Positions 1 to 63,400 of a stretch of 64,000 nt of DNA are shown here, piece by piece. Within the stretch, counting starts at the first letter, position 1; each line of letters begins with the position of its first letter. This DNA is from Ophelia neglecta. Lineage: Eukaryota. The position numbers were made by a program. Location of the stretch: assembly GCA_965285935.1 (NCBI GenBank), contig OZ260662.1, forward strand, positions 25,668,001 through 25,732,000, in the 5' to 3' direction.

Positions 1-3000
1 GAGATTATTTGTTTGGCATGAATGTTAGTAACAGTCAAATATAGTGTACAGAGAATCAGTGGAACGTCAATCAGCGTTCCATGGACCAGGTGTACGCTAT
101 AAATATACCAATGAACTGGTGTGACATAGATTTGAAATATAGACAACTGAATTTCCCGCTGTTTTGCCTCATTAATATGCAGGCAACAGGCATGGTTGGC
201 GCTGAAGTAGGCAGTCCCACGCATAAATGAATAAAAATATCGGGAAGCTGGATTTCTCGTCTACCGGAATCTGGTTTGTTTTTCGCCATGACTTGGATAT
301 TATCGGAGTTATCGCACTTTTTACGCCGGCTGTGTACAGCTTACGTTTCCCACCTTTCGCTTCGCTCTTATACACAGTGGGTAGCATTGACATTGACACT
401 AGCACCTGTGCTTTAATCAGACCACCTGTCATTTCAGACCATTAATATAAGGACTGTGCTGTATGCTTCCAATGCTTTATAAACTGTCTAAACAGACCAC
501 CTCGAAAATCAGACCAGCATTTTCCAGTCCCTTTGGTGGTCTGATTTCACAGGTTTCACTGTATATTAATTTTCTTAAAATGTACAAATAAGTGTGTTTC
601 TCTGTAGACTAAGGAGCGTTACGGTCCTAACCTGGACAGCCTGGCCGTGGGCCTGACGGTGGGGGTACTTGTAGACGAGGAGGGCTGTCTACATCTCTAC
701 GTTAATGACATTGACCAAGGGATCGCGGCCAAGGACATTCCCAGTACCTGCTACGCTCTGGTCGACCTCTACGGACAGTGTGAACAAGTCACGGTCGTCA
801 CCAGCGACTCCGAGGTAAACCTGTCAACTTTTGTATACTTTATTTGTCATAATGATAAATTAGAAGTGTCATTGATGTAATGGAGGTTTATTCATTGTGG
901 TCTGAGTAGTATATTTCACTCTCATGGTATTTATACCAAGCTGCCTGGATGTCTTCTGTGTGTGTAGGGTCTGGGTCTATTAGAGTTTTACTAGGACAGA
1001 ACACAGAATGAATCAGGAGGAGCTAAATACTAGTTTATCTTCCAGGGGCTTACTTAATCAACTCATTATAAAAAACATGGAAGAGGCCCTTTGAAAAATA
1101 AAACAAGTTGACACCTGGTTAGGGCCCAACTCGGAGGTAGCCGAGTGCTTCTAGCGTTCGCGTGTGTTGACTTGTGATTTGTATACTACTCTTTACATAC
1201 TCTGCAGCAACAGTCTACAGTATGCCCACTAGTTGACACAGTTATATTCAATCAGAATCAAACACAGGAACCGAGCTACTTAACTGTAAAAGGAATACAG
1301 CCCACACCTCAATACAGTACTTGTACAGTATAATGTGAACATCATTCTGATATCAGGGGTTCTGAAATGATTTGTTCCATGCTTAGATTGTAGCACAACC
1401 AGTTGTTATTATTTGTTTAGACCATGGATCCCTGATATGTAAACAATATGTTTGGGGAGGGAACATCCTATTTGCAAAAAAAAAGGATTTTTATTAAGAT
1501 CATATATGTACTTGTATGTTTAAATAAGTTGTCAGTGATGATCACTAGTGACCTTGACTAGAATGTTTTGCGGCTGGGAACTGTGATTTTTCCCTACATG
1601 TAGGTCTTGTAGATGCCTGGTCTAGTTTTTATATTTGCTCCTTGTTTTTTCGGTGCTGTTGCCGTTTTTTTTTCTTGTTTTGAGAAAGCCGGTTTGTGAT
1701 TTTCATCCGTCTGCTATGATATTTATCGTTTGGATTGTAGGCGTCTGGTCCAGGGGTGGCCCAGGAGTACAGGGAGAAGGCAGACATGGAGGACGGAATG
1801 AAGGAGTCCCAGAAACTAGGACGCATCTGTGAACCCAATGTCATCAAGAACTGTGAATACCAGAACATCTGTGGCCGATTCAAGGCCATGTTTGGGCTTC
1901 CAGGTAAGGGGCATCCAGAAAATAAACTGAGGGCTTCCAGGTAAGGGGTGTCCAGTAAATAAACTGAGAGCTTCCAGGTAAGGGGTGTCCAGATAATAAC
2001 CTGAGGGCTTCCAGGGTAGGGGTGTCCTAATAATAAAGTGAGGGCTTCCAGGTAAGGGTGTCCAGTAAATAAACTTAGGGCTTTTAGGTAAGGGGTGTCC
2101 AGATAATAACCTGAGGGCTTCCAGGGTAGGGGTGTCCTAATAATAAACTGAGGGCTTCCAGGTAAGGGGTGTCCAGTAAATAAACTGAGGGCTTCCAGGT
2201 AAGTGGTGTCCAGATAATAAACTGAGGGCTTCCAGGTAAAGGGTGTCCAAATAATAACCTGAGGGCTTCCAGGTAAAGGGTGTCCAAATAATAACCTGAG
2301 GGCTTCCAGGTAAGGGGTGTCCTAAAAATAAAGTGAGGGCTTCCAGGTAAGGGGTGTCCTAATAATAAAGTGAGGGCTTCCAGGTAAGGGGTGTCCTAAA
2401 AATAAACTGAGGGCTTCCAGGTAAGGGGCGTCCTAAAAATAAACTGAGGGCTTCCAGGTAAGGGGTGTCCTAATAATTAACTGAGGAATGAGATGGGTTG
2501 GAATTTGGTATTACCATTGAGATATCGTGTATATTTGTAAGTTAGGGATGCCAAATGGATTAGGTGAGGGGATACTTGCCAAGGAATATTATTACATGAT
2601 AGTGTTATTCAAAACAAAAACCTGATAATAAACCAGGATTTGTTTGAGGTTTTCCTTGTTTCTGAGCACAGCTGCATTAATCAGACACTTGTTTGTATTG
2701 TAAAGTACATATGTTTTAATTTCAGAGGGTTACTTCAATGAGGAGTTCAACAGATGTTACTGTGAGACTTGTCATAAAATCCGCAGTGACGACCCCTACC
2801 TGAGGAAGGGGGAACCACCGCGGGAGTATGCGTTACCCTTTGGATGGTGCAAGTTTGGTTTACGGTAAACTATTGGACATGTCTAAGCTTGATGTTACAA
2901 AATAACCATTGCTGATGAATCTGTGCTTTTCTGTCATTCTATTTGATATGAATTTGTTAATTGTTCTTTGATTCATACCATCATAATACAGTAACTTTTT

Positions 3001-60400: not shown

Positions 60401-63400
60401 AGATTTAAGTCAACTTTCCCTTGTGCAGTGATTAACTAAAGTGAGAAGTCAATATTATTAATTGTTTGAAAAAAAAGAATGATAAACAGGTGAAATATAC
60501 AGTTAAATCCTCTAGCCCCAGAAGATTGGCTAGCATTAGTTGAGGAATGACAAAGTAGATAATATGAACGTCTATGATATTTGTAAATAATTCATATTTT
60601 AACAGAATAACTGTCAGTTATTATAAGGAGTTAACTAGCTTCTCACTCACTACCTAATTATTGGAGGTATTTTTAACTCTTGTACATGGTTTGCAGAGGC
60701 AGGATACCTTGATGACATCCAGGAGTCTATGAGACCTAAACAGCTAGTCAAATTTGATGACATTATTCCAATTTCCGCCAAGAAGCATATTGGGATTGAG
60801 CACCTGAAATCCCGATTACGAGATCTGTTGGACCTGTATGCTGATATAGAATGGGAGAAAGAGCATGGAGGGGCGAGAGATCGTGCATTACAGGACATAC
60901 AGGACAGTGTGAGAGAGAGGCACCCCGGTGGGAGACTGGTGTGATCTGAGATCATACCAGCCATACAGGACATACAGGACAGTATGAGAGAGAGGCACCC
61001 CGGTGGGAGACTGGTGTGATCTGAGATCAGGCCAGCCATACAGGACATACAGGACAGTATGAGAGAGAGGCACCCCGGTGGGAGACTGGTGTGATCTGAG
61101 ATCATACCAGCCATACAGGACATACAGGACAGTGTGAGAGAGAGGCACCCCAGTGGGAGACTGGTGTGATCTGAGATCAGGCCAGCCATACAGGACATAC
61201 AGGACAGTGTGAGAGAGAGGCACCCCGGTGGGAGACTGGTGTGATCTGAGATCATACCAGTCATACAGGACATACAGGACAGTATGAGAGAGAGGCACCC
61301 CGGTGGGAGACTGGTGTGATCTGAGATCATACCGGCCATACAGGACATACAGGACAGTATGAGAGAGAGGCACCCCGGTGGGAGACTGGTGTGATCTGAG
61401 ATCATACCAGCCATACAGGACATACAGGACAGTATGAGAGAGAGGCACCCCGGTGGGAGACTGGTGTGATCTGAGATCAGGCCAGCCATACAGGACATAC
61501 AGGACAGTATGAGAGAGAGGCACCCCGGTGGGAGACTGGTGTGATCTGAGATCATACCGGCCATACAGGACATACAGGACAGTATGAGAGAGAGGCACCC
61601 CGGTGGGAGACTGGTGTGATCTGAGATCATACCAGCCATACAGGACATACAGGACAGTATGAGAGAGAGGCACCCCGGTGGGAGACTGGTGTGATCTGAG
61701 ATCAGGCCAGCCATACAGGACATACAGGACAGTATGAGAGAGAGGCACCCCGGTGGGAGACTGGTGTGATCTGAGATCAGGCCAGCCATACAGGACATAC
61801 AGGACAGTATGAGAGAGAGGCACCCCGGTGGGAGACTGGTGTGATCTGAGATCAGGACATACAGGACATACAGGACAGTATGAGAGAGAGGCTCCCCGGT
61901 GGGAGACTGGTGTGATCTGAGATCAGGCCAGCCATACAGGACATACAGGACAGTATGAGAGAGAGGCACCCCGGTGGGAGACTGGTGTGATCTGAGATCA
62001 GGACATACAGGACATACAGGACAGTATGAGAGAGAGGCACCCCGGTGGGAGACTGGTGTGATCTGAGATCATACCAGTCATACAGGACATACAGGACAGT
62101 ATGAGAGAGAGGCACCCCGGTGGGAGACTGGTGTGATCTGAGATCATACCAGACATACAGGACATACAGGACAGTATGAGAGAGAGGCACCCTGGTGGGA
62201 GACTGGTGTGATCTGAGATCATACCAGCCATACAGGACATACAGGACAGTGTGAGAGAGAGGCACCCCGGTGGGAGACTGGTGTGATCTGAGATCAGGCC
62301 AGCCATACAGGACATACAGGACAGTATGAGAGAGAGGCACCCCGGTGGGAGACTGGTGTGATCTGAGATCATACCAGTCATACAGGACATACAGGACAGT
62401 ATGAGAGAGAGGCACCCCGGTGGGAGACTGGTGTGATCTGAGATCAGGCCAGCCATACAGGACAAACAGGACAGTATATGAGAGAGGCACCCCGGTGGGA
62501 GACTGGTGTGATCTGAGATCAGGCCAGCCATACAGGACATACAGGACAGTATGAGAGAGAGGCACCCCGGTGGGAGACTGGTGTGATCTGAGATCATACC
62601 AGACATACAGGACATACAGGACAGTATGAGAGAGAGGCACCCTGGTGGGAGACTGGTGTGATCTGAGATCATACCAGCCATACAGGACATACAGGACAGT
62701 ATGAGAGAGACGCACCCTGGTGGGAGACTGGTGTGATCTGAGATCATACCAGTCATACAGGACATACAGGACAGTATGAGAGAGAGGCACCCCGGTGGGA
62801 GACTGGTGTGATCTGAGATCATACCAGACATACAGGACATACAGGACAGTATGAGAGAGAGGCACCCCGGTGGGAGACTGGTGTGATCTGAGATCATACC
62901 AGTCATACAGGACATACAGGACAGTATGAGAGAGAGGCACCCCGGTGGGAGACTGGTGTGATCTGAGATCAGGCCAGCCATACAGGACAAACAGGACAGT
63001 ATGAGAGAGAGGCACCCCGGTGGGAGACTGGTGTGATCTGAGATCATACCAGACATACAGGACATACAGGACAGTATGAGAGAGAGGCACCCCCGTGGGA
63101 GACTGGTGTGATCTGAGATCATACCAGTCATACAGGACATACAGGACAGTATGAGAGAGAGGCACCCCGGTGGGAGAGTGACGTGATCTGCAGGTCATTA
63201 ATTCCTGGCTTAACCATTGAACCCAGGATGCCATGGAAGATATCATGTGACCTTGGGATGACATTAGATTGGCCATGGTGTGATCTTGGTTTGTCCTGAG
63301 CTGTACCACTGCCTTACCTTAGTTTGAATTGAATGTTATGCTGGTTATAGGAATGTCTATGTAAGGATATTGGCAATTATTAAATAGACTATGATGTGAA

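What the first reader, a model, noticed from the sequence alone, without database searches (positions are those of the whole stretch)
1894..63190. All three genes carry tandem repeats anchored on their own coding boundaries
Seen: a 37-bp array begins on a NEURL4 exon end, a 75-bp array begins in the last codons of GTPBP10, and a decayed ~42-bp triplet spans the RABEPK stop. The units are unrelated in sequence, and each array extends downstream in the direction of transcription. Inference: a lineage-specific process may seed or retain minisatellites from exon-edge sequence (e.g. transcription-coupled repair or slippage). Selection alone could also explain the polarity, since arrays growing into exons would be purged.
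Basis: partly seen in the sequence, partly recalled or inferred. Interest (0 to 1): 0.68.

Follow-up and report, generated by a model that had tools for sequence, protein, structure and literature searches.

The report
Minisatellites straddling exon ends and stops
Three unrelated tandem-repeat arrays each begin in the last bases of a coding exon and run on into the intron or 3' UTR; this is a known, tolerated kind of local duplication, and one window cannot show a special process behind it.

Summary
A 37-bp array (16 units) starts 10 nt before a NEURL4-like donor site. A 75-bp array (31 units) starts 56 nt before the end of the GTPBP10 stop codon. A decayed 42-bp triplet starts 35 nt before the end of the stop codon of the RABEPK-like Kelch gene. 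All three run downstream, and their units are unrelated.

This architecture is already in print. Minisatellites whose first monomer spans an exon-intron junction are described for human F7 IVS7 (also 37 bp), IFI6, CBS, LMNB2 and PDGF. In lancelets they are called "mirages".

The polarity follows from geometry and selection. A tandem duplication that straddles a donor or a stop leaves the first copy intact and puts the extra copies in intron or UTR.

Whether three in one window is more than chance depends on the null. Placing whole arrays at random gives P = 0.05-0.07. Placing founder units at random gives P = 0.002-0.006 for 3' edges and 0.016-0.037 for either edge. None of these is corrected for post hoc choice of the window. 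Arrays cover 15.6% of the window.

A lineage-specific seeding process is neither shown nor excluded. No shared motif, structure or age supports it. Orthologues and a genome-wide test were out of reach.

The parts
1741..1903 (+). NEURL4-like coding exon. It enters in phase 0 and ends in phase 1 at the donor CAG|GTAAGG.
   Evidence: Open frame 1741-1944, with acceptor and donor motifs in the sequence. Splice phase is consistent across six exons: 608-814, 1741-1903, 2726-2864, 3748-3863, 4386-4536 and 5282-5489. The preceding exon matches Pfam Neuralized, E = 2.5e-12. This exon itself has no Pfam match.
1894..2484 (+). 37-bp minisatellite of 16 units. Unit 1 is the last 10 nt of the exon, the donor and 27 nt of intron.
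   Evidence: TRF score 857. Unit table: 14 of 16 units keep the 10 exon bases exactly, 11 of 16 keep CAGGTAAG and 13 of 16 keep CAGGTAA. The other 3 still hold a GT in a donor-like context (my reading). Units differ from the consensus at 2-5 positions. The 3' flank begins with GG, as the unit does, which is a 2-nt microhomology.
2726..2864 (+). Next NEURL4-like exon. Its first two bases complete the split codon left by the donor at 1903.
   Evidence: Acceptor at 2725|2726 with frame offset 1. Only the first donor keeps the frame open: reading on from the exon meets TAA in unit 2.
14307..14416 (-). The TAG stop is at 14309-14307.
   Evidence: Acceptor at 14417|14416 in phase 1, matching the donor of exon 14978-14844. 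Across that junction the GG-plus-acidic Kelch pattern seen in the large Kelch exon recurs. The large exon 17922-18747 matches Pfam Kelch families, best E = 9e-63.
14227..14341 (-). Decayed 42-bp triplet. Unit 1 holds the last 10 codons (plus 2 nt) and the TAG. Units 2 and 3 lie in the 3' UTR.
   Evidence: TRF: 2.7 copies, 83% matches, score 158. Units printed: unit 2 versus unit 3 is 32 of 42. Unit 1 is 43 nt and matches unit 2 at 35 of 42 aligned positions (my hand alignment). The dimer folds better than 199 of 200 shuffles, z = -3.2.
60697..60944 (+). Last coding exon of GTPBP10. The TGA stop is at 60942-60944.
   Evidence: Frame 60639-60941, with the acceptor read (about 60696|60697). Residues 24-74 of that frame align with residues 303-353 of the 387-residue PDB chain named GTP-binding protein 10, E = 0.0026. 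Exon 59605-59790 aligns with residues 198-259, E = 5e-20.
60889..63205 (+). 75-bp minisatellite of 31 units. Unit 1 holds the last ~18 codons and the TGA. The rest makes up about 2.3 kb of 3' UTR.
   Evidence: TRF score 4170, 95% matches. Unit table: unit 1 differs from the consensus at 1 position, units 2-30 at 0-7, and the decayed last unit at 16. 75 is a multiple of 3, so the stop recurs in the same frame in each unit. There is no AATAAA or ATTAAA inside the array; the first one after it is at 63379.

Best explanation
These are three independent minisatellites born in place. In each, the founding unit happened to straddle the 3' boundary of a coding exon: a splice donor in the NEURL4-like gene, and the stop codon in the Kelch (RABEPK-like) gene and in GTPBP10.

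Tandem duplication of such a unit, by replication slippage or unequal exchange (inferred), keeps the upstream copy joined to the exon. The coding sequence is then unchanged, and all further copies lie in the intron or the 3' UTR.

The extra copies are tolerated for two reasons. Splicing most likely uses the first of the reiterated donors, as shown experimentally for the human F7 IVS7 minisatellite (inferred for this gene). Translation ends at the first stop.

Arrays born inside exons, or across start codons and acceptors, would be more harmful and are purged. What survives therefore looks 'anchored' on 3' coding boundaries and polar.

That all three genes show it reflects a very minisatellite-rich sequence plus some luck, and possibly a modest real excess.
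For: - **Positions and unit contents:**
- **Local origin:** no unit has another copy elsewhere in the 64 kb. The best matches outside the arrays are 10-16 nt with E >= 0.36.
- **Microhomology:** the 37-mer array has a 2-nt microhomology (GG) at its end.
- **Independent events:** the units are unrelated. Their ages differ, at 83%, 88% and 95% matches. Fold z-scores are +1.3, -3.2 and -2.1, so there is no shared hairpin.
- **Harmlessness of the extra copies:** reading on from exon 1741-1903 meets TAA in unit 2, and 37 is not a multiple of 3, so only the first donor gives an open frame into exon 2726-2864. 75 and 42 are multiples of 3, and the stop recurs in frame.
- **GTPBP10 tail length:** the tail after the last residue aligned to the human chain is 27 aa here and 34 aa in human. 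The second PDB orthologue is 366 aa against 387. The stop therefore sits at an unremarkable place in a variable tail.
- **Array density:** 29 arrays cover 9,999 of 64,000 bp.
- **Chance under whole-array placement:** P(>=3 on 3' edges) = 0.049, or 0.073 given that no exon is hit internally.
- **Precedent:** Borensztajn et al. 2006, PMC1557585 (abstract and passages read). The human F7 IVS7 37-bp VNTR has a first monomer made of the last 4 bp of exon 7 plus 33 bp of intron. Its pseudo-sites are functional but silent, because the most upstream site is chosen. The paper says the same layout occurs in IFI6 (6-16), CBS, LMNB2 and PDGF.
- **Lancelet 'mirages':** PMC3087553 and PMC3902484, passages read.
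Against: Under the mechanistically more apt null, where founder units are placed at random in the array-collapsed window, only 0.28-0.38 units are expected to straddle a 3' edge and 3 are seen. That gives P = 0.0024-0.0061, or 0.016-0.037 for either kind of edge. Pure chance is therefore strained unless many windows were scanned.

Unit 1 of the 75-mer is almost identical to the array consensus (1 difference). This fits a very young array, but equally fits a coding tail that is being homogenised with, or was captured from, the array.

Several things could not be checked:
- No RNA data show which donor or poly(A) site is used.
- No orthologues could be compared, so in-place origin from ancestral exon sequence is inferred, not shown.
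- The first exon of GTPBP10 was not found, and exon ends elsewhere are accurate only to a few bases. The exon count used in the nulls is therefore approximate.
Confidence: 0.68

Rival explanations
1. There is a real, lineage-wide bias: minisatellites in this genome are preferentially seeded or retained at the 3' edges of coding exons. It is what a general 'mirage' phenomenon would be if extended to stop codons. Possible causes include transcription- or splicing-coupled breaks at exon ends.
For: There are 3 boundary-straddling arrays against 0.28-0.38 expected under the founder-unit null, P = 0.0024-0.0061. All 3 of 3 recognisable genes are affected. Lancelet literature already proposes that boundary duplications are common in that lineage (PMC3087553; PMC3902484).
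Against: This is one window chosen after the fact. P rises to 0.05-0.07 with whole-array placement, and to 0.24-0.32 if 5' edges count too. The units share no motif, no structure and no age. 15 of 18 3' edges and 18 of 18 5' edges are bare, even at TRF score 30. The offsets of array start from the boundary differ (10, 35 and 56 nt). The lancelet cases include 5' boundaries as well, whereas none is seen here. CpG depletion is general, with o/e 0.10-0.74 in 4-kb bins and 0.37 overall. From my own knowledge, not a test, that looks more like a vertebrate than a lancelet.
Confidence: 0.17
2. Capture rather than seeding, for the two stop-spanning arrays. The arrays, or their first units, came first, and the present C-terminal residues and stop were recruited from repeat sequence. 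This could follow loss of the old stop or an insertion into the old tail.
For: The array-encoded tails lie beyond the conserved part of the protein. The GTPBP10 alignment to the human chain ends at residue 74 of the exon frame, 10 residues before the array starts. The Kelch gene's tail follows the last Kelch strand. Unit 1 of the 75-mer differs from the consensus at only 1 position.
Against: No copy of either unit exists elsewhere in the window. The GTPBP10 tail length lies between those of the two PDB orthologues, so nothing looks truncated or extended. For the 37-mer, capture is unlikely: only 10 exon bases are involved, and they close a frame-consistent junction.
Confidence: 0.12
3. The arrays are an assembly artefact: mis-assembled or inflated repeat arrays placed beside exons.
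For: None from the calls. Long arrays are generally hard to assemble (my own knowledge).
Against: The units carry ordered, shared variants and small indels rather than identical copies. Array edges are decayed, as in natural arrays. There are no N runs in the window.
Confidence: 0.03

Closest known systems
Human F7 intron 7 (IVS7) 37-bp VNTR minisatellite (Borensztajn et al. 2006, PMC1557585; abstract and passages read)
   Same: The first monomer spans the exon-intron junction, so the donor is reiterated in every unit downstream. By coincidence the unit length is also 37 bp. In F7 the pseudo-sites would give aberrant transcripts, and only the most upstream site is used.
   Different: F7 has 4 exon bases per unit and 5-9 copies, with donor TGG/gtgggt. 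Here there are 10 exon bases, 16 copies and a stronger CAG/gtaagg donor. Splicing was tested in F7 and not here. The gene and organism differ, and the sequences are unrelated as far as the quoted motifs show.
Other human genes listed in the same paper as having a minisatellite whose first monomer spans an exon-intron boundary: IFI6 (6-16) intron 2, CBS IVS13, LMNB2, PDGF intron 4 (PMC1557585, Introduction passage)
   Same: They share the same architecture and polarity. Unit sizes range up to 81-100 bp and copy numbers are 10-25, comparable to the 16 and 31 copies here.
   Different: In IFI6 and CBS the first two pseudo-sites are also used, which is unknown here. None of the listed cases is described as spanning a stop codon.
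Lancelet 'mirages': minisatellite-like tandem duplications of exon/intron boundaries in Adh3, globin, TnC and PGBD5 genes (PMC3087553; PMC3902484; passages read). The original Canestro et al. 2002 paper was not held.
   Same: These are tandem units containing an exon edge plus splice signals, reported not to disturb splicing. They show concerted evolution inside the array with decayed edge units.
   Different: Mirages occur at both 5' and 3' exon boundaries, whereas only 3' boundaries are hit here. Two of the three arrays here span a stop codon, which the mirage definition does not cover. Whether this window comes from a lancelet could not be tested.

Membership tests
Boundary-spanning minisatellite (F7 IVS7 type / 'mirage') | Head-to-tail array of minisatellite-size units | tested here: met
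   TRF reports 16.1 x 37 bp, 2.7 x 42 bp and 30.9 x 75 bp.
Boundary-spanning minisatellite (F7 IVS7 type / 'mirage') | The first monomer contains an exon-intron junction, so the splice signal is reiterated in the intron | tested here: met
   This holds for the 37-mer only. Unit 1 is 10 exon nt, the donor and 27 intron nt. 11 of 16 units keep CAGGTAAG and 13 of 16 keep CAGGTAA. The exon end is inferred from frame and phase, not from RNA.
Boundary-spanning minisatellite (F7 IVS7 type / 'mirage') | The boundary spanned is an exon-intron junction (applied to the 42-mer and 75-mer arrays) | tested here: not met
   Both of these arrays span a stop codon inside a terminal exon, not a splice junction. 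They work the same way but fall outside the published definition. My search for 'minisatellite' plus 'spans the stop codon' found 0 papers.
Boundary-spanning minisatellite (F7 IVS7 type / 'mirage') | Only the authentic (most upstream) site is used, and splicing is undisturbed | not testable with these tools
   No transcript data are available. Indirect support: every downstream donor would give a premature stop.
Boundary-spanning minisatellite (F7 IVS7 type / 'mirage') | Copy-number polymorphism or instability | not testable with these tools
   Only a single haplotype is available.
GTPBP10 (Obg-family mitochondrial GTPase) | Obg fold plus GTPase domain, with closest relatives named GTPBP10 | tested here: met
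   Pfam GTP1_OBG at 27.5 bits (cut-off 27) on exon 52599-52793, and MMR_HSR1 at 25.6 bits (cut-off 21.9) on exon 59605-59793. The best PDB hits are GTP-binding protein 10, ahead of MTG2 and bacterial Obg. Searches were run exon by exon only.
NEURL4 | Neuralized homology repeats and orthology to NEURL4 | tested here: inconclusive
   One exon (608-814) matches Pfam Neuralized, E = 2.5e-12. 0 of 5 downstream exons match any Pfam family.
RABEPK | Kelch-repeat protein orthologous to RABEPK | tested here: inconclusive
   Kelch families match, best E = 9e-63. The PDB holds no relevant relative of the last exon. Orthology is untested.

The most novel reading that the evidence does not exclude
This genome, which is CpG-depleted and vertebrate-like, has a genuine genome-wide excess of minisatellites whose founding unit straddles a coding 3' boundary, at both donors and stop codons. 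That would make 'mirages' a mutational signature of exon ends rather than a lancelet curiosity, and it would include a stop-codon class that has not been described. Arrays of 16 strong reiterated donors, or of 31 reiterated C-terminal codon blocks, would then be a recurrent source of splice-site competition, 3' UTR length variation and new C-termini.
Probability: 0.15. Interest if true: 0.6.

Novelty: new member of a known kind. Interest (0 to 1): 0.3.

Why it matters
As it stands the finding adds three examples to a known class.

The NEURL4-like array is a natural test of 5' splice-site choice. It carries 16 consecutive donor-like sites, 11 of them exact copies of a strong CAG|GTAAGG site. 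That is more sites, and stronger ones, than in the F7 model.

The two stop-spanning arrays show the same logic at translation stops. Copy number can change 3' UTR length, by about 2.3 kb in GTPBP10, without touching the protein.

If a genome-wide test showed a true excess at exon ends, it would link minisatellite birth to exon-edge features. It would also extend the lancelet 'mirage' idea to another lineage and to stop codons.

Tried and rejected
**Checks on the arrays**
- **Shared sequence among the three units:** none. In 6 comparisons, the shuffle fractions were 0.037-0.96.
- **Shared hairpin as a common slippage trigger:** rejected. The 42-mer and 75-mer dimers fold better than shuffles (z = -3.2 and -2.1), but the 37-mer does not (z = +1.3). 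Three control arrays gave z = -1.2, +0.4 and -2.7.
- **Dispersed-repeat or transposon origin of the units:** no other copy in the window. Only 64 kb could be searched.
- **A decayed extra 75-mer unit upstream in the GTPBP10 coding sequence:** the flank differs at 45 positions of the alignment to the consensus, which is not convincing.
- **Further weak arrays at the other exon edges:** none at TRF score 30.

**Searches that gave nothing**
- **PDB relative of the Kelch gene's last exon:** only designed repeat proteins, E >= 0.011.
- **Rfam at gathering thresholds and tRNA scan, for clues to the lineage:** 0 matches each.
- **Literature on minisatellites spanning a stop codon:** 0 papers. A search for fish or genome-wide enrichment gave nothing relevant in the 15 listed of 1,119 papers. 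PMC10078293 on splicing-associated repeats had nothing on boundary-spanning arrays in the passages shown.
- **Canestro et al. 2002 (PMC117041):** not held. Supplementary files of papers were not consulted.

**Steps not done**
- **Joined exon models:** spliced models were searched exon by exon only.
- **Masked or human sequence:** the window holds no N. I do not take it for human, since the GTPBP10 exon 59605-59790 is about 65% identical to the mammalian chains (my count).

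
Full report
**The window**

The window is 64,000 bases with no N. GC is about 39%. CpG is depleted almost everywhere: observed/expected is 0.37 overall and 0.10-0.74 in 4-kb bins. Nothing suggests human sequence. The best-conserved GTPBP10 exon is about 65% identical to the mammalian chains in the PDB (my count from the alignment). I could not determine the lineage. Rfam and tRNA scans gave 0 matches, and no eukaryotic sequence collection was open. General CpG depletion looks vertebrate-like to me, but that rests on my own knowledge and is not a test.

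**Genes**

I built exon models from stop-to-stop frames, splice motifs and phase continuity. I searched them exon by exon only.

- **NEURL4-like gene, plus strand.** Exons are 608-814, 1741-1903, 2726-2864, 3748-3863, 4386-4536 and 5282-5489. The phases chain without a break. Only the first exon has a Pfam match (Neuralized, E = 2.5e-12). The other five exons have none, 0 of 5.
Exons are 18747-17922, 17713-17390, 14978-14844 and 14416-14307, with all junctions in phase 1. The large exon matches Kelch families, best E = 9e-63. The PDB holds no useful relative of the last exon.
- **GTPBP10, plus strand.** Eight exons run from 52599 to 60944; the ATG exon was not found. Pfam gives GTP1_OBG and MMR_HSR1. 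The best PDB hits are chains named GTP-binding protein 10.
- **Elsewhere.** The ten other largest open frames have no Pfam match, 0 of 10. A 741-codon frame at 31042-33264 is a LINE reverse transcriptase (RVT_1, E = 7e-35).

**The three arrays**

*1. The 37-mer, 1894-2484.* It has 16 units. The exon ends at 1903 with CAG|GTAAGG. Unit 1 is the last 10 exon bases, the donor and 27 intron bases.
- 14 of 16 units keep the ten exon bases exactly.
- 11 of 16 units keep CAGGTAAG and 13 of 16 keep CAGGTAA. The remaining three still offer a GT in a donor-like context (my reading).
- The sequence after the array starts with the same two bases as the unit.
- Reading on from the exon meets TAA in unit 2, and 37 is not a multiple of 3. 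Only the first donor therefore gives an open frame into exon 2726-2864.

*2. The 42-mer triplet, 14341 down to 14227 on the minus strand.* TRF gives 2.7 copies at 83% matches. Unit 1 holds the last 10 codons, two further bases and the TAG at 14309-14307. Units 2 and 3 lie in the 3' UTR.

*3. The 75-mer, 60889 to about 63205.* It has 31 units at 95% matches.
- Unit 1 holds the last ~18 codons and the TGA at 60942-60944.
- It differs from the consensus at one position only.
- The last unit is decayed, with 16 differences.
- The stop recurs in the same frame in each unit, so copy number cannot change the protein.
- The array contains no AATAAA or ATTAAA. The first one after it is at 63379.

The units are unrelated to one another. 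None has another copy in the window.

**Is it more than chance?**

TRF rows merge into 29 arrays covering 9,999 bp, or 15.6% of the window. Against 18 coding exons (3,496 bp), 3 arrays lie over a 3' edge, 0 over a 5' edge, 0 inside an exon and 0 cover an exon.

| Null model | Arrays used | Trials | Expected on 3' edges | P(>=3 on 3' edges) | P(>=3 on either edge) |
|---|---|---|---|---|---|
| Whole arrays placed at random | 29 | 20,000 | 0.86 | 0.049 | 0.24 |
| Same, given no exon hit internally or covered | 29 | subset of the above | not computed | 0.073 | 0.32 |
| One founder unit per array, array-collapsed window (55,189 bp) | 29 | 50,000 | 0.375 | 0.0061 | 0.037 |
| Same, independent arrays only | 22 | 50,000 | 0.279 | 0.0024 | 0.016 |

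The 22-array set merges the seven arrays of one palindromic element into one, and the two halves of the 38-mer array into one.

I think the founder-unit null is the more apt one for arrays born in place. All of these figures are post hoc for a window picked by a scan of unknown size. They also rest on exon ends that are good to only a few bases outside the three boundaries at issue. At TRF score 30, no further array touches any exon edge.

**Mechanism**

The geometry is shown directly by the sequence. Duplicating a unit that straddles a donor or a stop leaves the first copy continuous with the exon and places all further copies downstream. 'Extends downstream in the direction of transcription' therefore follows automatically for any array over a 3' boundary.

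The rest is inferred. The arrays probably arose by slippage or unequal exchange from ancestral single-copy sequence, and they probably persist because they are harmless.

For the donor array there is experimental precedent. In human F7 intron 7, a 37-bp VNTR has a first monomer made of the last 4 bp of exon 7 plus 33 bp of intron. Its pseudo-sites are functional but silent, because the most upstream site is chosen (Borensztajn et al. 2006, PMC1557585; abstract and passages read).

I found no feature common to the three arrays that would point to a shared trigger:
- The units share no sequence.
- DNA fold z-scores are +1.3, -3.2 and -2.1.
- Their ages differ, at 88%, 83% and 95% matches.
- The offsets of array start from the boundary differ, at 10, 35 and 56 nt.

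**Comparison with what is known**

The same F7 paper states that 'several genes' carry minisatellites whose first monomer spans an exon-intron boundary. It lists IFI6 (6-16), CBS, LMNB2 and PDGF.

In lancelets such structures are named 'mirages'. [quoted passage not shown] The original 2002 paper was not held.

The NEURL4-like array is thus a new member of a known kind. The two stop-spanning arrays work the same way but fall outside the published definition. One search for that wording found no paper, which is weak evidence of absence.

**Rivals**

- **A real lineage-wide bias** stays open at about 0.17. It is the only reading that the founder-unit P-values favour.
- **Capture of the coding ends from pre-existing repeats** stays open for the two stop-spanning arrays, at about 0.12. 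The array-encoded tails lie beyond the conserved parts of the proteins, and unit 1 of the 75-mer is nearly consensus. Against this, the GTPBP10 tail is 27 residues past the last aligned position, compared with 34 in the human chain. The two PDB orthologues are 366 and 387 residues long. Nothing therefore looks truncated or extended.
- **An assembly artefact** is unlikely, given the ordered variants and decayed edges.

**What stayed unchecked**

- Any genome-wide count.
- Transcripts.
- Polymorphism.
- Supplementary files of the papers.

**Verdict**

The architecture is already known. The polarity is explained by geometry and selection. A special exon-edge process is neither shown nor excluded by one window.

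Noticed in passing
window 30722-36237: A LINE fragment sits inside a 38-bp minisatellite. It carries a 741-codon open frame at 31042-33264 that matches Pfam RVT_1 (E = 7e-35). The same 38-mer unit flanks it at 30722-31069 (9 copies) and 33550-36237 (about 70 copies). It looks like a retrotransposon insertion into an existing array.
   Followed up: partly
window 56030-58510 (GTPBP10 intron between exons ~55853-55927 and 59377-59429): A large, nearly perfect palindrome of about 2.4 kb. Its arms are up to 367 nt and 97% complementary. It contains internal 22-, 90/101- and 152-bp tandem arrays and a (GCG)18 run at 57440-57493. It resembles a foldback-type element or an inverted duplication, and it accounts for 7 of the 29 TRF arrays.
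   Followed up: partly
window 17454-17513 (minus-strand Kelch gene exon 17713-17390): Short in-frame 9-nt tandem repeats (TRF scores 37-44) lie inside the coding exon. They encode a Ser/Gly/Val-rich low-complexity stretch between the Kelch blades. These are the only tandem repeats found inside coding sequence, apart from a 12-mer x 2.1 at 639-663.
   Followed up: no
window 44001-52000: This is the least CpG-depleted part of the window (o/e 0.60-0.74 in 4-kb bins, against 0.10-0.54 in the other bins outside 56-60 kb). It lies upstream of GTPBP10 and is possibly its promoter region. The ATG exon of GTPBP10 was not located.
   Followed up: no
window 54568-54695, 55566-55633 and 16978-17275: Unusual hexamer and tetramer microsatellites occur in introns. 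(GAGTAC)n and (CGAGTA)n lie in a GTPBP10 intron. An (AGTC)-based 14/42-bp array followed by (TCGA)n lies 160 nt downstream of a donor of the Kelch gene.
   Followed up: no
window 60889-63198: Each 75-mer unit contains an internal 9-nt duplication (CAGGACATA x 2) and an imperfect 23-nt palindrome. The GTPBP10 3' UTR would therefore carry about 30 hairpin-forming copies. The dimer folds at -23.7 kcal/mol as DNA, z = -2.1.
   Followed up: partly
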